Shown piece after piece: positions 1,935-17,623 of a DNA stretch of 24,156 nt; the stretch's first letter is position 1, and each line of letters starts with the position of its first letter. Below the pieces are notes generated by a model that saw only the letters and a program-made list of their open reading frames with translations, was not told where the DNA came from and searched no databases. The position numbers and the translations under genes are program-made. Origin of the DNA: a virus (taxonomy: Duplodnaviria > Heunggongvirae > Uroviricota > Caudoviricetes); the IMG/VR virus record IMGVR_UViG_644736359_000007. One strand, written 5' to 3'.

Positions 1935-2714
1935 TCACTCATCATCTTCTGTTTCGTACTCCACATCAGAAAGCCTGACCTCAAGCTCCAGGGACGTCGT
2001 GAAGCCGCTATTATTCAGAAAATGTGTCACCTTAGTGATTGTCCAGTCCTGCTCGTCTATGACGCGCTTAAAGCCTGACACTTTAACCGGTGTTTCCGTG
2101 TAAATATCAGCACGACCGGTAGCCAGACTGATGGAGAACTCCGCAACGCCCCGTTGCAGCTTATCCCACTTCGCCTGAGCGGCGCGCATGGCCTGCGCTT
2201 TCGTGGCATATACCGTGGTCAGGGCAAAAACGTTGTCAGCCTCACCGGCCATGTATTCACCTTCACGCGCTTCCGGTACTTTAGGCGCTTTCTTCTGCCT
2301 GACCGGTTTCGCGTTCGGGTGCTCCAGTGCGCGCAGGTGTTTCTCTTTCTTTTTGCGTTTCAGTTTTACCTTCTGCTTTTGCGGTTTCGGGTCTTTGGTG
2401 TGTAACCACTTTGCCGTTACGCCTGTATCGTCGCGCTGGTAAGAGCCTGCAAAACGAATCGGCACGGCATCCACACCGGTTGCGGCGTAAAGCTCCCAGA
2501 TAACCGAATCCGGGAATCCACCGAGCGACCACTCCATTGACAGCGCATCGTCATCAAGGCCGAGGTCTACCGGTGCGCTGCCGTTCATCCCCGCACCGCG
2601 ATAGTTTTCGAGCTTACGGGTCAGTTTTGGCAGCGTGACGGACTTTGCAACGCCCTGATAGCTGTAGCCGTTCAGAAAGACGTTCATTAACTTGAGTTTG
2701 CGCGGCATTGCCAT
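1935..2714 (-). pseudogene. Hybrid ORF: N-terminal ~95 aa of P2 tail tube protein FII fused in frame to the C-terminal part of tail protein D (yegZ-like remnant)
   Basis: N-terminus MAMPRKLKLMNVFLNGYSYQG... is the P2 FII start with a strong RBS (AAGGAG); after ...PIRFAGSYQRDDTG the sequence switches to a lysine-rich linker and a C-terminus (...FTTSLELEVRLSDVEYETEDDE) that I recall as gpD-like. Genes E, T, U and most of D are absent, consistent with an internal deletion. Confidence 0.65.
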
Positions 2715-2726
2715 CGGTCAGGCTCC

Positions 2727-3917
2727 TTAATTGCTGTTAACCGAGGTAACCAGACTTGCCAGGTATCTGGAAGTAATACGCTGGCGCAGGGTCAGGTTTT
2801 CGAGAGGAGGCACCGGGGTATAGTCGTAGTCGATATACAGTTTTCCGGCCTTGAGGGTTTCCGCATCATTGGCTTCTTCACTGAACCAGCATGTGCCATC
2901 CACGATATAACCGTTGTTTTTCAGTTCGCGGAATTTGGCATTAATGCCATCAATGATGTCACGAATCAGCGTTGCGGTAATTGGCTTATCAATAGCCCAC
3001 ATGTGCGCCTCGGCCATCGTGTCGGCCAGTACCTGCGCGGTGCGGGTGTAGCTTTCAAAGAGGAACAGCGGGTCATCAGAGCAGGTACGGTTACCCCAGA
3101 AGCGGAAGCCGTCGCGGCGAATCAGCGTAGTGATGCCTGACTCGTTAAGCAGGTCAGCATCAGTACCGGACTTCTGCAAATCCCAGAATACAGAGGCGCT
3201 GATGCCGGTAACACCATTTACCCCGACGTTGGACAGCGTTTTATGCCAGCCCTGCTCCTGGTCGATTTTGGCACGCAGCCCCAGCGCACGGGCGGTGGCA
3301 TACGCGGTGGCAGTGGTACTGGTAACCGTATCCCATGCGAGGAAATCCGGCCAGATGACCATCAGCTCACGCTGGCTGAAATTCTGACGGTAGGCTTTTG
3401 CCTCGGAAATGGTTTTACAGCCCCATGCGCTGATATACCCGAATGCATTCAGTTCCTGGCATACCGATGCCAGTGCGACGGCAACCTCTTTGGTGTCCAG
3501 CCCCGGCACACCAAGAATGCGCGGTTTAACGCCGGTAACCGACTCAGCCCCCATCAGGGCTTTCAGTCCGGTGTACTGACCGTTTTCGTCAGTGGTGCCG
3601 ATGATATTGGAAACGGTCTGCGCGAGTTTCGTTTCCTCGTCGTCGCCGGTGCCGTCTTCCACACGCACGACAACAGTGACCGGTTTTGACTGGTCGGCGA
3701 TAGCCTGCAACGACGCCGCCAGCGTGCCTTTTTTACCGGCCTTTGCAATTGCGCTCTGTACATTGGTAATCAGCACCGGTTTATTGACGGGGAAGGTTTC
3801 CGCATCCGCATCGCTGGCCGTGCAGACCATGCCGACAATGGCCGTGGATACGGTGGAAATGACGCGGGTGCCGTCGTTAATCTCCAGCACCTGCACGCCG
3901 TGATGATAGTCACTCAT
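2727..3917 (-). CDS. FI: Contractile tail sheath protein FI
   Basis: 396-aa product MSDYHHGVQVLEINDGTRVISTVSTAIVGMV... matches P2 gpFI from memory; start at ATG 3917 with GGAG RBS (8-nt spacer). The track ORF extends 50 codons further upstream without support. Confidence 0.9.
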   Translation of the reverse strand: MSDYHHGVQVLEINDGTRVISTVSTAIVGMVCTASDADAETFPVNKPVLITNVQSAIAKAGKKGTLAASLQAIADQSKPVTVVVRVEDGTGDDEETKLAQTVSNIIGTTDENGQYTGLKALMGAESVTGVKPRILGVPGLDTKEVAVALASVCQELNAFGYISAWGCKTISEAKAYRQNFSQRELMVIWPDFLAWDTVTSTTATAYATARALGLRAKIDQEQGWHKTLSNVGVNGVTGISASVFWDLQKSGTDADLLNESGITTLIRRDGFRFWGNRTCSDDPLFLFESYTRTAQVLADTMAEAHMWAIDKPITATLIRDIIDGINAKFRELKNNGYIVDGTCWFSEEANDAETLKAGKLYIDYDYTPVPPLENLTLRQRITSRYLASLVTSVNSN

Positions 3918-4959: not shown

Positions 4960-5146
<187 letters not shown>

Positions 5147-5175
<29 letters not shown>

Positions 5176-6265
5176 TTGCCCTTATTATACTATAAAAGGC
5201 AACACTAAAAAAGAAAACATTTCATCTTCTGCTGTTTTAACAACAGCCCTGCATACTTCTCTTCTAAAAATCACAACGGTAATTAATGAAATTAATTCTA
5301 TTTATCCCTTTGATGTCTCAGTTGTTATTCCGGTTCACAACCGAGAAACCCTTATTCTCGAATGCATTAAATCTTTAAACAATCAGACTATAGATAAAAA
5401 TTGTTTTGAAGTTATTTTCATTGATGACTGTTCCACTGACAGGAGCATTGCCGCCATTGAATATAACATTTCGAGAGAAATAAATTATCGTATTATCCGT
5501 AGAGCAGTTGGTTCAGGGAATGCATCAGCGCCGCGAAATGAGGGAATAAAATCCGCAAAAGGTCGCTATGTGTTTTTCTTAGACTCTGATGATTCCATTC
5601 ACTCTGACTTACTGTCCGATGGTATTCAGATGGCTTATAAAAACAATAGTGACATTGTATATTTCAAGCAGGTTTCCTCTACAGGGAGAGGGGTTCCTGT
5701 ACGCCCATTTAAGGCAGACACGAATAAAGCAGATATTATAAAAAACCATCTTTTTAGATCATTAAAAATCTTCAAGTTCTTTAAAAGAGAGTTGCTAATC
5801 AATAACAACATCTTATTTAACCCATCAATTTCAGTCTATGAGGATATGCTTTTTTCTTGCCAGAGCCTAACTGTAGCTAATACGATATCTATACTGGCAA
5901 GAAAGGGCTACTACTCTCTGAATCGCCATGAAGAACCACATCTATCTAAAACATCTTTCTCCATTAAACAAAGAGCCTTGGTATTACAAACAGGTTTGAT
6001 TTATATCTTATCAAGCAATAAAAATGAAGCAGAAATAGTAAAAATGTTTAATGCATGGCTGGTTATTTGCGTTGAGCACTTGGCATCCATATTATCCAAA
6101 AAAAGTTTAACAACTAATGAGAAGTCTCACGTTTTTAACTTGATACATAAATCACTCTTACCATATACAGGGCTTGTAAATGAGTCCCAAATATATCCCG
6201 CACAAAGAGAGCTTGTCAGTTGCTTAATCTGTGGAGATTATTCTTCTTTTTGCGAAAAAATATAA
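5147..6265 (+). CDS. Family-2 (GT-A fold) glycosyltransferase
   Basis: Conserved GT2 motifs VSVVIPVHN, DDCSTD, APRNEG and FLDSDD in the first ~150 aa. There is no in-frame ATG: candidate starts are GTG 5147 or GTG 5153 (AGGTG RBS-like at 5143-5147), or ATG 4960 after a one-unit change in the AGCC tract. AT-rich, atypical for the prophage backbone. Confidence 0.75.
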
Positions 6266-10781: not shown

Positions 10782-11129
10782 TCAACTCACAGGGATGGTT
10801 AACGAAAGTGGCTGGCCGGTGTCGTTGTGCTGGCCGGTTAAGGTGACCGTCATTCGCCCGTCAAAACTGCGCTCAGTGGTGACGGATGACAGGGTGACGC
10901 GGGGTTCCCATTTCAGCACCGCCATGTAACAGGCGACCTTAATCTGCAACTCAAGCGCCGGGGTCTGCGGCTGGTCAATCATTGACGCCAGCAACGAGCC
11001 GTAATCACGACGCATCACCCGCGAGCCGACCGGTGTGCGCAGGATATCGCCGATACTCTGGCTGATATGCTCAAGGTCAGTGACAGTCAGGCCATCACTG
11101 CAATTCATTCCGAGATAACGCGCTGTCAT
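10782..11129 (-). CDS. W: Baseplate protein W (gp25-like)
   Basis: 115-aa product (P2 gpW length); position between V and J. Confidence 0.85.
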   Translation of the reverse strand: MTARYLGMNCSDGLTVTDLEHISQSIGDILRTPVGSRVMRRDYGSLLASMIDQPQTPALELQIKVACYMAVLKWEPRVTLSSVTTERSFDGRMTVTLTGQHNDTGQPLSLTIPVS

Positions 11130-11761
11130 AGAGGGCTCCCGGTTGTGCCGCCGCTGTCGCCGGGGTGTTTATGGGTATGCAGTACCTTACCGTTTGATGA
11201 GAGTTCACCGCCGGTGTGTTCAATGTTGCCGCGCATCGTCCCGCCCTTCTGCACTTCCAGCGTGCCGGTAATCAGCCTGTTGGTGCAAACCACCTCCGGT
11301 GTGTCCAGGGTGACGCGGGTTGATGCTTTCACCATGACCACCGGCACCGTGGCAGTAACAGAATCAGAAGCCGTCACGCTGGCCGTTTTAATTCCGCTTA
11401 CCGTGAGTGCACTGGTTTCGGGTTCATACTCAATCACCGCCCCGTCAGGGAAACGGATATGCAGGGCATCCGCCGACGCAGACGGCGCGGGGTTATCGCC
11501 GGAATAAATCCCCGGCAGAACGAACGCCGTGTCGAGTTCACCGCCCACAGCCAGAATCAGCACCTGTTCCCCCACGGAAGGTGCCCACCATGTGCGCGAA
11601 CGTCCGGCACGATGGGTCAGCCACTGAAGCCAGTCAGTGCACATGCCACCGGTCTGCACACGGCAGCGACCGGCTTTAAGGTTGGTTTCGACGACAAGGC
11701 CGGTACGAATCATGTTGCGCAGTGCGCGCGCGAGTTCCTGAATATTTGCGAGAGTGTTCAT
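11126..11761 (-). CDS. V: Baseplate spike protein V
   Basis: 211-aa product starting MNTLANIQELARALRNMIRTGLVVETNLKAG...; start chosen at ATG 11761 to match P2 gpV; ATGA-type overlap with W. Confidence 0.85.
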   Translation of the reverse strand: MNTLANIQELARALRNMIRTGLVVETNLKAGRCRVQTGGMCTDWLQWLTHRAGRSRTWWAPSVGEQVLILAVGGELDTAFVLPGIYSGDNPAPSASADALHIRFPDGAVIEYEPETSALTVSGIKTASVTASDSVTATVPVVMVKASTRVTLDTPEVVCTNRLITGTLEVQKGGTMRGNIEHTGGELSSNGKVLHTHKHPGDSGGTTGSPL

Positions 11762-11778
11762 GCGTGTGAGATTGCACA

Positions 11779-11827
11779 ATATATAAAAGTTATGCTATCT
11801 GGATTCATTTGTAGAACGACCATACAA
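11779..11827 (-). promoter_or_regulatory. Putative Ogr-dependent late promoter upstream of V (dyad TTGTA-N9-TACAA plus downstream -10-like TATATA)
   Basis: Partial dyad resembling the P2 late-promoter TGT...ACA element about 25 nt upstream of an AT-rich -10-like hexamer. Spacing differs by 1 nt from the consensus I recall. Confidence 0.35.
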
Positions 11828-11844
11828 CATTCGAGGAGAGCGTA

Positions 11845-12630
11845 ATGTTCAGTGATAATGTGACTAATGCGTGGTGGTTTATCTCTTTGTATCTATTTTT
11901 ATTAATAGCATTAACATTTATTACCTTTGGTAAAAGTAATCTTATGAGGTTTATTGCACATCATTTCAATTTTGAGTATTCAGACAGAAAGTTAAAAATG
12001 CTCGACAAAAAATGGCGCGACATTCAACTATTTAAAATAATTAACGGAATCAATGTATCAGGCATCGAAGATGTGAGAATGATACAGCAGGGGCTGATTG
12101 ATGGAAAACTAAAAACATCGTATTTTTTTCTTACTCGCTTCTGGGGTGACATAACAAAACCACCACACATAATTAAAACAATAATTGTAATTCTGTCCAG
12201 CATTATTTATATTCTCTTCGCATGTTATATACACAACAAACAATCCGCTATAGTAAGAGATGCCATAGGCATACCATATAAAAATATGATGTACTATGTT
12301 TATAGTGACAAAGTTCTTTTATCCTTCAACAATAAAACAGTTGAATTCAATAAAACTTATAGCCTTGCCGATTGCAAGAGGCTACGAAACATATTTATAA
12401 AAGACACACTTCCTGAGATCGCCTGCAATAAGCTCTTACAGCTAAACGAGGAGGACTCGGAATGGTTAAGTCAGGAAATTAAAGATAATAACAGCCAAAA
12501 AAAAGCATTATTAATAATATCCCTCATCTATTTCATTTCAGGTCTGGTTATATTCCTGTCATATACAAAATTCCTTTACGCCAATAAGAAGGTTGTAGAA
12601 TACAAAGCATCAAATAAAAATCACTCATAA
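11845..12630 (+). CDS. Hypothetical membrane protein (three predicted transmembrane helices), AT-rich cargo gene
   Basis: ATG with strong GAGGAG RBS; 261 aa with hydrophobic segments AWWFISLYLFLLIALTFITF, IIKTIIVILSSIIYILFACYI and ALLIISLIYFISGLVIFLSY; lysine/asparagine-rich; no homolog recognised. Confidence 0.6.
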   Translation: MFSDNVTNAWWFISLYLFLLIALTFITFGKSNLMRFIAHHFNFEYSDRKLKMLDKKWRDIQLFKIINGINVSGIEDVRMIQQGLIDGKLKTSYFFLTRFWGDITKPPHIIKTIIVILSSIIYILFACYIHNKQSAIVRDAIGIPYKNMMYYVYSDKVLLSFNNKTVEFNKTYSLADCKRLRNIFIKDTLPEIACNKLLQLNEEDSEWLSQEIKDNNSQKKALLIISLIYFISGLVIFLSYTKFLYANKKVVEYKASNKNHS

Positions 12631-12635
12631 GCCTC

Positions 12636-12672
12636 TAAACATTGAGCGACCAGCATGGCCGCTCAATGTTTA
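12636..12672. repeat. Perfect 13-bp inverted repeat (TAAACATTGAGCG ... CGCTCAATGTTTA) with 11-nt loop between convergent coding regions
   Basis: Seen directly in sequence; lies between the membrane-protein stop (12630) and the stop of the minus-strand fragment (12692); possible bidirectional terminator or rearrangement scar. Confidence 0.5.
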
Positions 12673-12694
12673 ATTGCGCATCAGCCTCTGCCTG

Positions 12695-12955
12695 GATAAA
12701 ACTAACGCTCAAGGTGAGCCAGGATAATCTCTTCAATCATCTGCACATCCTCACCGGTAAAGCCGAGCAGAGGACGCGCCGGATAATCAATTTTCTTACC
12801 GTCTTTCCGGGTTTCTTCCGACAGACCGAACTGATGCACACTGGCGATTTTCGGCGACTTTCCCAGCAGGATTTCAGCCGCTTTGTGCTGGATTTTCTGG
12901 TGTTCGGTAATGCGTTTCTGGAAAAGCGTTACAGCACCACCGGTAAGGTCATCAG
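12695..12955 (-). pseudogene. Orphan 3' fragment (87 codons) of an unidentified gene on the minus strand
   Basis: Minus-strand frame translates to GFQSDDLTGGAVTLFQKRITEHQKIQHKAAEILLGKSPKIASVHQFGLSEETRKDGKKIDYPARPLLGFTGEDVQMIEEIILAHLER-stop using preferred E. coli codons (CTG, CCG, GGT, CGT), whereas the overlapping + strand track ORF uses rare codons (AGG, CGG, ATA, CGA); no start codon; bounded upstream by an in-frame stop at the junction with the Q fragment. Confidence 0.5.
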
Positions 12956-12958
12956 ACT

Positions 12959-13616
12959 GGAAACCTCACCGGCAAAATATACCCGCCGTGGCGTGGAGGA
13001 GGATGTTTACTGGTGGGTGCCGTCCTTCAACGAACCGACAGCCTTCGCGCCCGGTTCCGTGTTTCACCTGCTGGAGCCCGATATTAATCAGGAGCTGTAC
13101 GGCCTGCCGGAATATCTCAGCGCCCTTAACTCTGCCTGGCTGAATGAGTCGGCCACGCTGTTCCGCCGCAAGTATTACGAAAACGGCGCACATGCCGGAT
13201 ACATCATGTACGTCACTGATGCCGTGCAGGATCGCAACGATATCGAAATGCTTCGCGAAAACATGGTGAAGTCGAAAGGCCGCAACAACTTTAAAAACCT
13301 GTTTCTCTATGCCCCACAGGGAAAAGCCGACGGCATTAAAATTATCCCGCTCAGTGAAGTGGCGACGAAGGACGATTTTTTTAATATCAAAAAAGCCAGT
13401 GCCGCAGACCTGCTGGACGCGCACCGCATCCCCTTTCAGTTGATGGGCGGCAAGCCGGAGAACGTCGGGTCGCTGGGTGATATTGAGAAAGTGGCAAAGG
13501 TCTTTGTCCGCAATGAGCTTATCCCGTTACAGGACAGGATCCGTGAGATAAACGGCTGGCTCGGTCAGGAGGTCATCCGCTTTAAAAACTACTCACTGGA
13601 CACTGACAACGGCTGA
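12959..13616 (+). pseudogene. Q: 3' fragment of portal (capsid vertex) protein gene Q
   Basis: C-terminal ~219 codons (…GLPEYLSALNSAWLNESATLFRRKYYENGAHAGYIMYV…RFKNYSLDTDNG) with good codon usage, ending next to cos as P2 Q does; the 5' ~125 codons and upstream gene P are absent. The 324-aa track ORF begins at a TTG and its first ~105 codons are non-coding read-through. Confidence 0.65.
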
Positions 13617-13620
13617 ACAT

Positions 13621-13644
13621 CGCCGCCTGCGGGCGGCTTTTTTA
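13621..13644 (+). terminator. Intrinsic terminator after Q
   Basis: GCCGCC-TGC-GGGCGGC hairpin followed by TTTTTTT, 5 nt after the Q stop. Confidence 0.6.
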
Positions 13645-13784
13645 CACCCCGTCATCACGCCCTCACACGCTCACCACCGCACAAAACACCCCGCAGACAC
13701 ACCAACGCCCCGGCGCACAATCTAAACGCCATCACGACGCGCTGAGACGCTAAAAAATAAAATCAGCACCACCGCCAGCGCGCA

Positions 13785-13803
13785 GTGCTTTCCCCGCCTC
13801 GCC
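13785..13803. other. cos site (19-nt P2-type cohesive end sequence)
   Basis: GTGCTTTCCCCGCCTCGCC is the reverse complement of GGCGAGGCGGGGAAAGCAC, the P2/186 cohesive end as I recall it; located between Q and the old/tin position as in P2. Confidence 0.7.
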
Positions 13804-13931: not shown

Positions 13932-15902
13932 TTAAAGGTCATCAATTAAACCTAAAGGCAAACCATCCTCACCAACCGAGCTATAATGAGCGATAATATT
14001 CGAAAGTTCACCAGTAGAAAACGAATTAGGCAAATCATTATCAACTAATATAATCTGGCACGGAACATTTTTTCTTTCTGCTTTTTGAACTGTATTCAAT
14101 AGTTGCTCATAAATATTTTGATACTTCATCGGGTCTGACATCCCCTCAAGGTCATCCTCGACTGCAAGAGTTTCTTTTGAGTATTTTTCCTTGGTCTGTT
14201 TCCCTAAATATTTACCAACCGTATCAAATATCAAAAGTAAAGGATGGTTAACATTATGGTCTATTGCATAATCAAGAATAGACAAAAGATACCCAATAGA
14301 AGAAATAGTTCTCAAACCTCCGGACGTTATTTTAAAATATTCCTTTCCTCTTATAACAGGGGTGTAATATCTTTCAGAGATTTTTATCCCCGTTCTGTTT
14401 TTGATATTAATACCCTTCAAATACTGACTAAATCTATCACCTAAACCTTGTAAAATGCCTTCCATACTAGGTGCGTTTTTCTTTAACGCATCCAAGCGTT
14501 CAGTTAATGTTTCAATATCTTTTATCAGTACCTGATGCTTTTCAAGCAGTTCCTCTTGCTGGTTTCTAACCTTCAAATCTTTTACTAACTGCTCCCTAAC
14601 CTTCTCGTTTTTTGATATCTCTTTAATATAAAAATCTCTCTGAGTCAAGAATGGTGTAATCATTGACTGGCTTTCTTCGTCAATTAACTCTCTCAACTCG
14701 TCAAGTTGTTCATCTAATTCTTTTTTATAACCAGATTCTTTTTTTAATTTAAATGACATTTCTGAGATCATGTCATTAATATTTCGTCTACGTCGACTAA
14801 GTGAATTCAACTCTTCATTAAGATCTTTTTCTGATGAAATTTCAAATGGAAAATCGGAATCATCTATTTTAATGTGGCTATCACAGATCGGACAGGAAAA
14901 TACTTCCTTATCCAATACACCAATGCGAGAATTTGCTGTTTTAATCGCTTTGAGTTTTTCAATATCATTATCATAGTCATTTTTTAACCGCGAATATTTA
15001 TCAATCTTATCCTCAAGCGTGCTAATATTTAATATGCACTCCTTGTATTTAAGCGAAATAAAATTGTGGGCATCTTTCAATTCTGTATACTGCATGGAAT
15101 CCGCTTTCATATTTTTATCGAGAGCAGACAAACCTGCAACAAGTTCTTCTAAAATAAGATCTATCCTATTAATCTCATCATCAATTGATTCAATTGTTTC
15201 ATAGTCTGTATCGCGAAGAAATTCAGATATTATCTGATACTTCTTATTTAGTTCCGTTACTAAACTACTTTTTGCAGATATTTCACCTTGGAGTCTGGCG
15301 ATGCTTTCATCCAACACATTGAACATGTATTTAAAAACTTCTTTCGTAAATGCGTAACGGGACCAATCCTCCAATCGTAAGAATGATTTACTACCAATAT
15401 CATCCTGACTTACATAAACAAATTTATATATATTTCTAAAGCTTAACCTGCGCATCTGTGAATGTGCTTTAGAAGGAGACACCTTAATTTCAATTTTTGG
15501 AAAATTAAGACTATCAAGTAAAAACTCCGAAAAAACGCCATCAACATTTGATAAGGGGCTATAATTAGGAGCGTATTTTTTCGGAAAGTGTTTATGTAAA
15601 TCATCAAACTTACAACGATAAACTTCTATTGATTTTTTATGATCATAGATATCTCTTACGATTGTGAATACAGTATCATTGATCACTACTTCAAGAGCAG
15701 CATAGTTTACTGATGTTTTTATTTCATCTGCTAAATCTATAGAACTAGCACCTAAAAGATAATTAATAAACTCCAGAATACTTGACTTACCTGTGTCAGA
15801 GTCTCCGTAGATAACATTGAGACCTTTATAAAAAGTAGTGACGTAGTTTTTACGAACGCCAACAAGAATCAAACTATTGATATTGAGATATGATTTCATC
15901 AT
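13932..15902 (-). CDS. Rad50/SbcC/SMC-like ABC ATPase with central coiled coil and CPxC zinc-hook motif (candidate LmuB-like)
   Basis: 656 aa; Walker A GDSDTGKSS (about 15781-15807); long heptad-like charged region; CPICD near the middle (about 14878-14892); ABC signature ITSGG (about 14311-14322); Walker B HPLLLIFD (about 14221-14250). AAGGAG RBS; start ATG 15902 or 15899; ATGA overlap with the upstream gene stop. Confidence 0.7.
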   Translation of the reverse strand: MMKSYLNINSLILVGVRKNYVTTFYKGLNVIYGDSDTGKSSILEFINYLLGASSIDLADEIKTSVNYAALEVVINDTVFTIVRDIYDHKKSIEVYRCKFDDLHKHFPKKYAPNYSPLSNVDGVFSEFLLDSLNFPKIEIKVSPSKAHSQMRRLSFRNIYKFVYVSQDDIGSKSFLRLEDWSRYAFTKEVFKYMFNVLDESIARLQGEISAKSSLVTELNKKYQIISEFLRDTDYETIESIDDEINRIDLILEELVAGLSALDKNMKADSMQYTELKDAHNFISLKYKECILNISTLEDKIDKYSRLKNDYDNDIEKLKAIKTANSRIGVLDKEVFSCPICDSHIKIDDSDFPFEISSEKDLNEELNSLSRRRRNINDMISEMSFKLKKESGYKKELDEQLDELRELIDEESQSMITPFLTQRDFYIKEISKNEKVREQLVKDLKVRNQQEELLEKHQVLIKDIETLTERLDALKKNAPSMEGILQGLGDRFSQYLKGINIKNRTGIKISERYYTPVIRGKEYFKITSGGLRTISSIGYLLSILDYAIDHNVNHPLLLIFDTVGKYLGKQTKEKYSKETLAVEDDLEGMSDPMKYQNIYEQLLNTVQKAERKNVPCQIILVDNDLPNSFSTGELSNIIAHYSSVGEDGLPLGLIDDL

Positions 15903-16264
15903 TTCTCCTTGAAGACTTTGTTTATAACAGAGTTTAACTTAGAGGTAGGCAATGCTTGTAGCGGTAACAATGCTTCGGCTAGTCGTTTTATTTCTTTAAA
16001 ATATCCATCAGTCAATGAGCTAGCAAATTCCTTACCTTTTTCAGATAAAAATAATTTAACACTCTCATTATTTTTTTTCTCAGCTGAGAGCAATCCCCGC
16101 AATGACATAATTTTTATAAGATATTTCACTTTGGAATTGTCGAATAAGATATCTACATTTGATGAAAAACTCTTTATTGTATAAGTTAACTGGGACTCGA
16201 CACAAGCAGGCTTTTTCCCCGAAACTGTAAGAGCACAATCAATTTTTGATGGATTTTTTATCAC
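15899..16264 (-). CDS. Small hypothetical protein encoded between the hydrolase and the ATPase (candidate LmuC-like accessory)
   Basis: 121-codon ORF (GTG start at 16264; alternative ATG at 16108 would give 70 aa); stop overlaps the ATPase start (ATGA), indicating translational coupling; AT-rich. Confidence 0.5.
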   Translation of the reverse strand: MIKNPSKIDCALTVSGKKPACVESQLTYTIKSFSSNVDILFDNSKVKYLIKIMSLRGLLSAEKKNNESVKLFLSEKGKEFASSLTDGYFKEIKRLAEALLPLQALPTSKLNSVINKVFKEK

Positions 16265-16399
16265 AGATACATAAAAATTTGTATTTTATTAATATCTAAT
16301 GACAACACTCCTTTTTTACTATGAGATAATATAGATATAGCAATGGCAAGCATAGCAAAATTCAAACTATACTCTTCATCAAGAGGTATATACGGCAAG

Positions 16400-17623
16400 T
16401 TATTTTTCTTCATGATTACCTCGCCGTAATTGCTCCAAAGTTTCTACGCTGGTTTCAGATGACCAGACAATATCCCTGTCATTTTTGTTAGCCAGTTGAT
16501 GCAACATTCCTTTCTTATGTATCGTTTCCAAACTTTTTATAAGAGAATCTAACGACGACTTATCCTCCTGGGTTATTCGTCTATGAACAGCAGCAATAAA
16601 TTTATCTGGGGAAATTGAATTTGCAATGTATTGCTCATACTCTTCCTGGTAAATCTCCCTTATTTTAGAATACAAATGACCAAGTTGTTTTCTATCGTAA
16701 TCACTCGTAAAAATATTTCTCGCAAGCTCAGCATTATAATAATATTCCTTTGCATGCAGAGCGATATCCTGATGTATATCTGCGACAATCATTTTTAAGA
16801 CGAAATACTCATTATCATATTGTTTATCATCAGAAAAACGCTCAACGCAAATCTTCTTGGGTGCTTCTAAATTTATCTGCTGAATAAATTGCTTTACCGC
16901 AACAAACACTGTAGACGAGCTATTTTCGGGCTTGCAAATTGAGCTATGCCCTTCATTAACTGCAATTGAGTTATGTCGTTCACTATCCATCGGTAATGCG
17001 CTTTTTTTATCGACTATAGTGTCATGAGATCCATAAACATATCTAGTGATAGGAAGTTTTTTGCTACAATTTATCCAGCGCCTATTCAATGTATCAGTCG
17101 CTTCACTTAACAATCCAAGATCTACTAACTGAGCATTTGAAGATACCATTGAAGTTATATTCGCTAATTTAGCACCAAAGTGAGGGACTGCTAACGAAAT
17201 GAATCCAATTATATTAGATTGTTCCTCATGCTCAACTTTTTTTAGAATTAGATTTTTTGATATTAACCCCCCCATACTATGGGCGATTATTATAATTCGA
17301 GAGTAATCACTTAGTGTTACTCTAATCTCAGTATACAATAACTCAGCTATTTCATCAGTTGGTAAATTTCTCTCTAACTTATTTTTCTTAAAGAAAATAC
17401 GAGCCAAGAATCCTGACGTTTTAGCATACGTTTGTGTGAATTTAGTAAAATAATTGAAACATGCAATATCAAATACGTTGCTAATATCTTCATCTTCTGC
17501 TAATAGTTTTGGAAATGAAATTTCTTTATTAAAGTTCCATGTTTCCAAACCACCATTTAATCCATGTACAAATAGTATCAGGCTATCTTTTTTCTCGTGG
17601 CTTATCCATTCAACCATGCTCAT
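16400..17623 (-). CDS. Alpha/beta-hydrolase (lipase/esterase-like) domain protein with a C-terminal helical domain (candidate LmuA-like effector)
   Basis: 407 aa; N-terminal LILFVHGLNGG and nucleophile-elbow IIIAHSMGGL (GXSXG-type, about 17267-17284), then candidate Asp (GSHDTIVD) and His (NEGHSSIC) in Ser-Asp-His order; C-terminal ~160 aa charged/helical; sigma70-like promoter (TTGTTT-N16-TATACA) just upstream. Confidence 0.7.
   Translation of the reverse strand: MSMVEWISHEKKDSLILFVHGLNGGLETWNFNKEISFPKLLAEDEDISNVFDIACFNYFTKFTQTYAKTSGFLARIFFKKNKLERNLPTDEIAELLYTEIRVTLSDYSRIIIIAHSMGGLISKNLILKKVEHEEQSNIIGFISLAVPHFGAKLANITSMVSSNAQLVDLGLLSEATDTLNRRWINCSKKLPITRYVYGSHDTIVDKKSALPMDSERHNSIAVNEGHSSICKPENSSSTVFVAVKQFIQQINLEAPKKICVERFSDDKQYDNEYFVLKMIVADIHQDIALHAKEYYYNAELARNIFTSDYDRKQLGHLYSKIREIYQEEYEQYIANSISPDKFIAAVHRRITQEDKSSLDSLIKSLETIHKKGMLHQLANKNDRDIVWSSETSVETLEQLRRGNHEEK

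What the first reader, a model, noticed from the sequence alone, without database searches (positions are those of the whole stretch)
11780..12692. Stand-alone AT-rich membrane protein replacing the capsid/lysis module
Immediately divergent from the V late promoter region, where P2 has S, R, lysis and capsid genes, there is a single 261-aa ORF with three predicted transmembrane helices, a strong RBS and markedly lower GC than the flanking baseplate genes. It is flanked by a 13-bp perfect inverted repeat. Such solitary membrane proteins in prophage cargo positions are frequently superinfection-exclusion or abortive-infection factors.
Basis: inference. Interest (0 to 1): 0.55.

Follow-up and report, generated by a model that had tools for sequence, protein, structure and literature searches.

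The report
Phage P2 orf30 membrane-protein gene
The flagged ORF is the E. coli B copy of orf30, a non-essential three-pass membrane-protein gene that phage P2 itself carries at exactly this spot; its function is still unknown, and it sits beside, but does not replace, a separately deleted capsid/lysis module.

Summary
The 261-aa, AT-rich, three-TM ORF (11845-12630, +) is real. It is not a replacement for the capsid/lysis module. It is the orthologue of phage P2 orf30 (84% aa identity; 99.6% to Peduovirus P24A7b; full-length phrog_2407), in its native slot between S and V on the opposite strand. The module is missing because of a separate 8.25-kb deletion. That deletion starts about 165 bp beyond the cassette and fuses S' to 'Q. 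It occurs only in E. coli B-lineage genomes. The "13-bp inverted repeat" is one hairpin downstream of the ORF, annotated in P2 as the O-operon terminator.

New here: orf30 belongs to a small family of about 250-270-aa proteins. Members only 17-32% identical occupy the same V|S slot in other P2-like prophages. All 26 aligned members keep a Cys pair in the TM2-TM3 loop, which with the charge pattern suggests an N-out/C-in topology. The soluble loops are under purifying selection (dN/dS 0.24-0.32). The S/V slot is a cargo hotspot that elsewhere carries defence-type genes.

No known family, fold or defence model matches. The most likely role is an envelope-level phage-exclusion factor expressed from the prophage (about 0.35); this is inferred, not shown.

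The parts
11845..12630 (+). orf30 orthologue CDS (261 aa plus stop); predicted three-pass inner-membrane protein
   Evidence: ORF. phrog_2407 match 1-261/261, E = 1.8e-143. 84.3% aa identity to P2 Orf30 and 99.6% to P24A7b. RefSeq WP_000490543.1, 'hypothetical protein'.
11831..11836 (+). Shine-Dalgarno sequence GAGGAG, 6-nt spacer to the ATG
   Evidence: Read directly from the sequence.
11762..12699 (.). Variable S/V cassette (938 bp). Everything between the V start codon and the S stop differs from the 64-bp 'empty' version of the site.
   Evidence: blastn against phage fiAA91-ss: homology ends at window 11761 and resumes at 12700.
11803..11830 (-). Ogr/activator binding site of the V late promoter, 15-42 nt upstream of the orf30 ATG
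   Evidence: Coordinates transferred from the P2 annotation (AF063097 10239-10266). The ACACAAC half-site is conserved in all 11 cassettes compared.
11869..11931 (+). TM1 (aa 9-29)
   Evidence: Hydropathy peak 2.14. dN/dS 1.23 for aa 1-29 among 7 alleles.
11932..12162 (+). Loop 1 (aa 30-106): the most conserved part of the family (DxQLFRxxNGINV...DA..I...G); predicted cytoplasmic
   Evidence: Highest information content (2.29 bits) and net charge +4.2 across 26 members. dN/dS 0.32.
12163..12225 (+). TM2 (aa 107-127)
   Evidence: Hydropathy peak 2.49. dN/dS 0.92.
12226..12504 (+). Loop 2 (aa 128-220): four beta-strands plus helices. Holds the conserved Cys pair C177 (12373-12375) and C194 (12424-12426). 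Predicted periplasmic.
   Evidence: AF2 secondary structure. C194 is invariant; a Cys at or within 3 residues of position 177 is present in all 26 members. Net charge -0.2. dN/dS 0.24.
12505..12567 (+). TM3 (aa 221-241), followed by a Lys-rich C-terminal tail
   Evidence: Hydropathy peak 2.58. C-tail net charge +2.1.
12636..12672 (.).
   Evidence: P2 annotates the equivalent feature as the putative rho-independent terminator of the O operon.
11126..11761 (-). Gene V (baseplate spike), intact
   Evidence: Pfam Phage_base_V, Phage_spike and Apex. ATG at 11761.
12702..12863 (-). Remnant of gene S (last 54 of 150 codons)
   Evidence: phrog_26 tail completion, profile positions 186-228. Alignment to LR595887 9204-9365. 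PGAP pseudogene.
12858..12864 (.). Deletion junction with about 7 bp of microhomology (CTTTCCC); 8,255 bp are missing relative to Peduovirus P24A7b
   Evidence: The junction is present in only 10 of 5,426 E. coli genomes, mostly strain B and its derivatives.
12858..13616 (+). Remnant of portal gene Q (last 253 of 344 codons)
   Evidence: phrog_68, profile positions 89-343.. PGAP pseudogene.

Best explanation
Identity (shown, about 0.97): the ORF is the E. coli B allele of bacteriophage P2 orf30. It is a single-gene, AT-rich cassette that occupies the cargo slot between late genes S and V in a subset of P2-like (Peduovirus) phages, and it is transcribed opposite to the late operons. The window is the defective P2-like prophage of E. 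coli B, lying between ogrK and yegR. An unrelated 8.25-kb deletion next to the cassette removed R, the lysis genes, the capsid genes and the terminase.

Architecture (inferred from sequence): a three-pass inner-membrane protein with the N-terminus out and the C-terminus in. It has a conserved, positively charged cytoplasmic loop (aa 30-106). It also has a periplasmic alpha/beta domain (aa 128-220), probably stabilised by a C177-C194 disulfide.

Function (inferred, about 0.35): a moron expressed from the prophage that acts at the cell envelope to exclude other phages. The most plausible mode is interference with genome delivery across the inner membrane, analogous to, but not homologous with, P22 SieA. 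Expression in the lysogen, the target phages and the mechanism are all unshown.
For: Identity: full-length phrog_2407 match. 84-99.6% aa identity to Orf30 of P2 and to 20 other Peduovirus records, always between S and V.

Real gene: nine alleles are all 261 codons with no stops or indels. Overall dN/dS is 0.46, and 0.24-0.32 in the two loops. 460 of 463 E. coli matches cover at least 80% of the ORF.

Family: a profile search of 1.84e9 proteins gives 44 hits, about 25 of them full-length with the same three-TM plan. Members only 17-32% identical (P0006, P0008, P0026, P0042) sit in the same V|S slot on the opposite strand. tblastn of P0026 recovers P2 orf30 at E = 1e-7 over 91% of its length.

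Topology: charge bias and the Cys pair present in all 26 aligned members.

Cargo or defence context: of 55 P2-like loci from different species in which S was found, 21 have an empty slot of 68-85 bp and 34 carry 0.8-3.1 kb of unrelated cargo. That cargo includes Ppl-like, PDC-S06, RelA/SpoT (PDC-S33), caspase-like and ion-channel-domain proteins. The literature already lists orf30, Z/fun and the TO region as the three horizontal-transfer loci of P2 (PMC3091744; PMC2771037).

Against: There is no experimental phenotype. P2's annotation says only 'nonessential'.

No sigma-70-like promoter was found upstream of the ORF. The only room for one overlaps the V late promoter, so expression in the lysogen is unproven.

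Rousset et al. isolated four P2-like phages and tested E. coli C lysogens against their eight-phage panel. Three of the isolates (AC1, DC1, SIAC10) carry orf30 alleles. The paper reports protection only for AC1, and the cloned gpA/gpQ-hotspot system recapitulated it (PMC9122126; alleles). Negative results for the other lysogens are implied, not stated.

Guilt by association in a hotspot is weak, because much of the S/V cargo is itself unannotated.
Confidence: 0.4

Rival explanations
1. Abortive-infection effector: the protein sits inertly in the inner membrane and, on sensing an infecting phage, permeabilises or depolarises the membrane, killing the cell before phage release (a single-gene Abi, in the manner of RexB or other membrane effectors).
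For: Three TM helices and a stand-alone gene in a slot that elsewhere holds defence-type proteins, including an ion-channel-domain protein and another membrane protein (8xMP) in the same position and orientation. Rousset et al. note that TM proteins in defence systems are usually suicide effectors.
Against: There is no sensor domain and no partner gene; in E. coli the cassette is a single gene. The two soluble loops, not the TM helices, are the constrained parts. That pattern fits binding domains better than a pore. There is no PADLOC hit and no reported toxicity.
Confidence: 0.15
2. Lysogenic-conversion or host-fitness factor unrelated to phage exclusion: an envelope protein that alters the cell surface, transport or stress tolerance of the lysogen.
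For: It is an AT-rich moron transcribed against the late operons. The same prophage carries another envelope-modifying cargo, a GT2 glycosyltransferase in the Z/fun slot. The family also occurs outside P2-like prophages, next to an integrase remnant or a DsbA-like gene.
Against: There is no enzymatic or transporter signature in any library. The family is strongly tied to one phage slot. No phenotype is known.
Confidence: 0.15
3. Accessory function in the phage's own lytic cycle, for example modulating lysis timing, DNA entry of the phage itself, or protection of the producing cell from its own progeny.
For: The gene lies between the lysis/tail-completion operon and the baseplate operon. Its 5' region overlaps the Ogr-activated V promoter.
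Against: It is annotated as non-essential in P2. It is absent from many fully functional P2-like phages, which have a 64-85-bp empty slot (PMC2771037). It is on the opposite strand to the late transcripts. An Ogr site centred near 11817 would place an Ogr-dependent start inside the ORF. There is no holin, spanin or antiholin homology.
Confidence: 0.1
4. Chance or decaying ORF with no function.
For: AT-rich DNA gives long ORFs by chance less often, not more. The only support is the lack of any annotation.
Against: Length is exactly conserved in nine alleles, with purifying selection in the loops. The motifs and the Cys pair are conserved down to 17% identity. There is a strong RBS.
Confidence: 0.02

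Closest known systems
Bacteriophage P2 Orf30 (AF063097, AAD03281.1; PHROG family phrog_2407)
   Same: Orthologue. Same length (261 aa), 84% aa identity, and the same position and orientation between S and V. It has the same downstream terminator hairpin and the same upstream Ogr site.
   Different: Allelic divergence only, concentrated in TM1 and TM2. Here it sits in a defective prophage whose neighbouring S-to-Q segment is deleted.
P22 SieA (superinfection exclusion, inner-membrane protein)
   Same: Prophage-borne, stand-alone, three predicted TM helices, inner-membrane location, and very divergent sequence types within one phage group (PMC10883804). This is the working analogy for the proposed mechanism.
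   Different: No detectable homology (hhalign probability 0.4%). SieA is 162-164 aa without large loops, whereas Orf30 has two soluble domains of 75-95 aa. SieA's activity has been shown experimentally; Orf30's has not.
Pfam DUF6216 (PF19723), uncharacterised membrane-protein family
   Same: Similar length (profile of 270 positions). Collinear sub-threshold matches from several family members across profile positions about 20-243.
   Different: The window protein itself gives no hit. The member hits shown are below the 27.3-bit gathering score (best shown 24.3 bits). DUF6216 has no known function, so the link adds no mechanism.
P2 accessory-gene hotspots (old/tin between gpA and gpQ; Z/fun between G and FI)
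   Same: AT-rich, non-essential cargo at a fixed junction between conserved genes, swapped between otherwise near-identical phages. The S/V slot shows the same behaviour in 55 loci. It was already named as a third horizontal-transfer locus.
   Different: old, tin and fun have demonstrated exclusion phenotypes. No phenotype is known for orf30. The recent hotspot surveys I read do not discuss this slot or this gene by name.

Membership tests
P2 Orf30 / phrog_2407 | Full-length sequence match to the family profile | tested here: met
   phrog_2407 1-261/261, E = 1.8e-143. tblastn gives 84.3% identity to P2 orf30 over 100% of the query.
P2 Orf30 / phrog_2407 | Located between tail-completion gene S and baseplate gene V, on the opposite strand | tested here: met
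   V lies at 11126-11761 (-) and the S remnant at 12702-12863 (-). The arrangement is the same in P2 and seven other phages.
P2 Orf30 / phrog_2407 | Intact reading frame under selective constraint | tested here: met
   No indels or stops in nine alleles. dN/dS is 0.46 overall and 0.24-0.32 in the loops.
Pfam DUF6216 (PF19723) | Score at or above the gathering threshold (27.3 bits) | tested here: not met
   The window protein has no DUF6216 hit. Five of 26 relatives hit with E up to 8.7e-7, and the individual scores shown are 12-24 bits.
SieA-type superinfection exclusion proteins | Sequence homology to SieA | tested here: not met
   hhalign of family profile A2 against P22 SieA gives probability 0.4%.
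SieA-type superinfection exclusion proteins | Integral inner-membrane protein with about three TM helices, encoded by a prophage | tested here: met
   Three hydropathy peaks and AF2 helices over the same segments. This is prediction only, with no fractionation data.
SieA-type superinfection exclusion proteins | Expressed from the prophage and blocks DNA entry of superinfecting phage | not testable with these tools
   Needs transcript mapping and infection assays. No clear promoter was found.
Known anti-phage defence systems (PADLOC-DB v2) | Match to a defence-protein model | tested here: not met
   Zero families at E <= 0.1.
Phage lysis proteins (holin, antiholin, spanin) | Match to a holin or spanin family, and a position within the lysis cassette | tested here: not met
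   No such Pfam or PHROG hit. The gene is on the opposite strand, outside the Y-K-lysABC block.
Transposon or IS-like insertion bounded by terminal inverted repeats | Inverted-repeat copies at both ends of the inserted segment | tested here: not met
   The only strong inverted repeat is one hairpin with a 3-nt loop, downstream of the ORF. The cassette boundaries at 11762 and 12699 carry no repeats.

The most novel reading that the evidence does not exclude
The Orf30 family would be a previously unrecognised class of single-gene, inner-membrane phage-exclusion proteins. It has a cytoplasmic conserved loop and a disulfide-bonded periplasmic domain. It is resident at a third defence hotspot of P2-like phages (the S/V slot) and diversifies to below 20% identity while staying in place. 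It would block genome delivery of competing phages.
Probability: 0.3. Interest if true: 0.55.

Novelty: already known. Interest (0 to 1): 0.3.

Why it matters
P2 is a model phage, and orf30 is one of its few genes still without a function more than 25 years after the genome was annotated. The two other AT-rich cargo loci of P2 (old/tin and Z/fun) proved to be rich sources of anti-phage systems. The S/V slot behaves the same way in this survey, but its most recurrent occupant has never been tested on its own. A defined phenotype would add a third P2 hotspot to defence-discovery pipelines and give a new envelope-level exclusion protein. For the scan itself, the value is corrective. The ORF is a known gene in its normal place, and the missing capsid/lysis module is a separate deletion specific to the E. 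coli B cryptic prophage.

Tried and rejected
1. "Replaces the capsid/lysis module": rejected. The cassette boundaries (11762-12699) are distinct from the deletion junction (12858-12864).

2. "Flanking inverted repeats suggest a mobile cassette": rejected. The repeat is one terminator hairpin.

3. Remote homology: Pfam, PHROGs, PADLOC, NCBIfam and a PDB sequence profile gave only phrog_2407 and sub-threshold DUF6216.

5. SieA homology: none.

6. Promoter search upstream of orf30: no consensus site. Cassettes with longer leaders have plausible -35/-10 pairs by eye, but this allele does not.

7. The two small ORFs upstream of the metagenomic homologue P0016 were checked as possible partner peptides. 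They look like the C-terminal remnant of a tyrosine integrase, not partners.

8. The search for related loci with the diverse alignment failed for lack of a conserved 7-10-mer. The gpV protein was used instead.

9. Literature: no paper found assigns a function to P2 orf30. WP_000490543 is not mentioned anywhere. Christie & Calendar 2016 is not held.

10. AF2 coordinates are not returned by the tool, so the C177-C194 distance could not be measured.

Full report
OBSERVATION. The ORF is present as described: 11845-12630 on the + strand, 261 aa, ATG start. GAGGAG lies 6 nt upstream of the ATG. GC is 0.32 (GC3 0.35), against 0.59 (GC3 0.64) for the adjacent gene V. Three hydrophobic segments lie at aa 9-29, 107-127 and 221-241. 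Two details are not as stated. First, the "13-bp perfect inverted repeat" does not flank the ORF. It is one hairpin at 12636-12672, 6 nt after the stop codon, with 17-nt arms of which 13 bp are perfect and a 3-nt loop. It folds far better than shuffled controls on both strands (z = -4.7 and -5.8). Second, the ORF does not stand where P2 has its S, R, lysis and capsid genes.

WHAT IT IS. The protein matches PHROG family phrog_2407 end to end (1-261/261, E = 1.8e-143). megablast and tblastn against 50,697 phage records find it in 21 Peduovirus records. Identity is 99.6% to Peduovirus P24A7b and 84.3% to bacteriophage P2, where the gene is annotated "orf30, nonessential". In P2 and seven other phages the order is the same: V (-), orf30 (+), a hairpin annotated as the putative rho-independent terminator of the O operon, then S and R (-). 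The Ogr activator site of the V late promoter lies between V and orf30. Transferred to the window, that site is 11803-11830. The literature already describes orf30 as a 786-bp ORF of unknown function inserted between S and V (PMC2771037). It also names the orf30 position, together with Z/fun and the TO region, as one of three loci of P2-like phages where horizontally acquired genes are found (PMC3091744).

SURROUNDINGS. The window is a reversed P2-like prophage lying between trhP/ogrK and yegR of E. coli B. Comparison with phage fiAA91-ss, which lacks orf30, shows that homology stops at the V start codon (11761) and resumes at 12700, 2 nt before the S stop. The variable cassette is therefore 11762-12699 (938 bp), against 64 bp in the empty site.

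The missing capsid/lysis module is a different event. Against P24A7b, window 11667-12864 aligns to 10400-9204 (99.8%) and window 12858-13803 aligns to 947-1 (97.6%). That leaves 8,255 bp absent, with about 7 bp of microhomology at the junction. S keeps its last 54 of 150 codons and Q its last 253 of 344. This junction is found in only 10 of 5,426 complete E. coli genomes, mostly strain B and its derivatives. By contrast, close orf30 alleles occur in 463 genomes, always chromosomal. In 460 of these the match covers at least 80% of the ORF. Some alleles are 100% identical to the window copy in prophages that have the full 8.5-kb spacing to Q, for example strain 21AH057.

IS IT A REAL, CONSTRAINED GENE? 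Nine alleles are all exactly 261 codons. Pairwise Nei-Gojobori dN/dS averages 0.46, against 0.06-0.13 for V, W, S and R, and dN is 6-10 times higher than in those genes. By region, the two soluble loops are constrained (dN/dS 0.32 and 0.24). TM1 and TM2 evolve at about the neutral rate (1.23 and 0.92). The pairs are not independent, so these values are descriptive only.

THE FAMILY. A word-indexed search of 5.8e9 proteins found only five 90%-identity clusters. A profile search of 1.84e9 representatives found 44 proteins, about 25 of them full-length (250-271 aa) with the same plan. In a 26-sequence alignment G68, G87, C194 and I212 are invariant. G29, Q61, D76, C177 and K254 are nearly so. The best-conserved stretch is aa 58-73 (DIQLFKIINGINV) in loop 1. 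Every member has a Cys pair in the TM2-TM3 loop. Across the family, loop 1 has net charge +4.2, loop 2 has -0.2, the C-tail has +2.1, and the N-terminus has no Lys or Arg. The positive-inside rule and the conserved Cys pair both point to the same topology: N-out/C-in, loop 1 cytoplasmic, and loop 2 periplasmic and probably disulfide-bonded. This is inference. AF2 (pLDDT 74-75) predicts a small helical loop 1, and a loop 2 with four beta-strands followed by helices.

GENOMIC CONTEXT OF RELATIVES. Members only 32%, 31%, 20% and 17% identical to the window protein (P0006, P0008, P0026, P0042) are each encoded between V and S of a P2-like prophage, on the opposite strand. tblastn with P0026 recovers P2 orf30 directly (E = 1e-7, 91% coverage). 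A few members lie elsewhere: next to a degraded integrase (P0016), next to a DsbA-like gene (P0017), or at a contig end (P0005).

I fetched 80 gpV-centred loci from different species. S was found within 3.5 kb in 55 of them. Of these, 21 have an empty gap of 68-85 bp and 34 carry 0.8-3.1 kb of cargo falling into more than 30 unrelated protein clusters. The Orf30 family is the most recurrent cluster (five loci), always adjacent to and divergent from V. Other cargo includes a Ppl-like PHP+ATPase protein, PDC-S06, a RelA/SpoT-domain protein (PDC-S33), a caspase-like protein (beside an Orf30 homologue), an ion-channel-domain protein, DUF4062, and another membrane protein (8xMP) in the Orf30 position. 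The S/V slot is therefore a true cargo hotspot with a defence flavour. All 11 cassettes compared keep the ACACAAC Ogr half-site, so each variant retains its own copy of the V promoter region.

WHAT IT IS NOT. There is no hit in PADLOC or NCBIfam. There is no Pfam hit above threshold. A few relatives give collinear but sub-threshold matches to DUF6216, itself uncharacterised. A PDB sequence profile search found nothing meaningful. There is no holin or spanin signature. There is no homology to P22 SieA. Fold searches were uninformative.

MECHANISM. What is shown is a conserved, stand-alone envelope protein carried as swappable cargo by a temperate phage, oriented against the late operons. What is inferred is that it is expressed from the prophage and acts at the inner membrane or periplasm against incoming phages. 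The best analogy is P22 SieA, a prophage-encoded three-TM inner-membrane protein. [quoted passage not shown] The constrained loops and free-running TM helices fit a binding protein better than a pore.

Several points count against the exclusion idea. No sigma-70-like promoter is detectable upstream in this allele, and the only space for one overlaps the V promoter. Rousset et al. isolated four P2-like phages and tested E. coli C lysogens on their eight-phage panel. Three of the isolates (AC1, DC1, SIAC10) carry orf30 alleles. The paper reports protection only for AC1, and its gpA/gpQ-hotspot system recapitulated that protection (PMC9122126). This is weak evidence, because the negatives are only implied, the panel is small, and AT-rich genes may be silenced in the laboratory. 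I put exclusion at about 0.35, abortive infection at 0.15, a non-phage envelope or fitness role at 0.15, a lytic-cycle accessory role at 0.10, and leave the rest open.

NOVELTY AND VERDICT. The feature is an already-known, already-annotated gene of a model phage in its normal position. Its functional guess is reasonable but untested. This analysis adds four things: the cassette and deletion boundaries, the extent of the family and its fidelity to the slot, a topology and disulfide model, and evidence that the S/V slot is a defence-flavoured hotspot. Interest is modest (0.3). A cheap plaque-assay experiment could settle whether P2 has a fourth exclusion function.

Noticed in passing
window 4981-6265 (repeat at 5114-5141): A (CAGC)n tetranucleotide repeat lies between an ATG at 4981 (MSENIVGFF...FT(ASQP)n) and a GT2 glycosyltransferase ORF (5147-6265) in the Z/fun cargo slot. 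The window has 7 copies; E. coli B NZ_CP115178.1 has 35. The glycosyltransferase is out of frame with the ATG in both, and would be in frame for n = 9, 12... 36. This looks like a slipped-strand phase-variable glycosyltransferase carried by a P2-like prophage. A literature search found no description of it.
   Followed up: partly
window 13932-17623 (-): The gpA/gpQ (old/tin) hotspot carries a Lamassu system: LmuA, an alpha/beta-hydrolase type with an ABC-3C CTD8 domain (16400-17623); LmuC (about 15899-16411); and LmuB (13932-15902). In the window, lmuC is frameshifted by a 2-bp TG duplication near 16262-16266 relative to NZ_CP115178.1, so the system may be inactive in this strain, or this may be a sequencing error.
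   Followed up: partly
window about 1935-2714 (-): A second internal deletion of the prophage fuses a C-terminal fragment of late-control gene D to an N-terminal fragment of tail-tube gene FII, removing U, T, E/E' and part of FII (PGAP pseudogenes). The prophage is therefore defective twice over. This fits the classical defective P2-related prophage of E. coli B (from my own knowledge, not checked).
   Followed up: no
E. coli H1827/12, NZ_CP013031.1 2933914-2936507: This strain has an orf30 allele identical to the window's, but only about 1.6 kb separates orf30 from the same Q fragment (228 bp in the window, about 8.5 kb in intact prophages). It may be another deletion variant of the same prophage.
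   Followed up: no
L062 1056-2528 (+) and 2604-3368 (-); L029/L035 about 2718-3399 (-): In Pseudescherichia vulneris a caspase-domain protein (Peptidase_C14) shares the S/V slot with an Orf30 homologue. In two other loci (L029, whose record is titled Vagococcus sp., and L035, Yersinia alsatica) the Orf30 position and orientation is taken by an unrelated membrane protein of Pfam family 8xMP (PF24838).
   Followed up: no
L013 682-980 (+): The metagenomic Orf30-family gene P0016 is preceded by two 49-aa ORFs that read like the broken C-terminus of a tyrosine integrase (...IRKTIRYAHFTLDHLEEA). This suggests the family also rides on other integrative elements.
   Followed up: no
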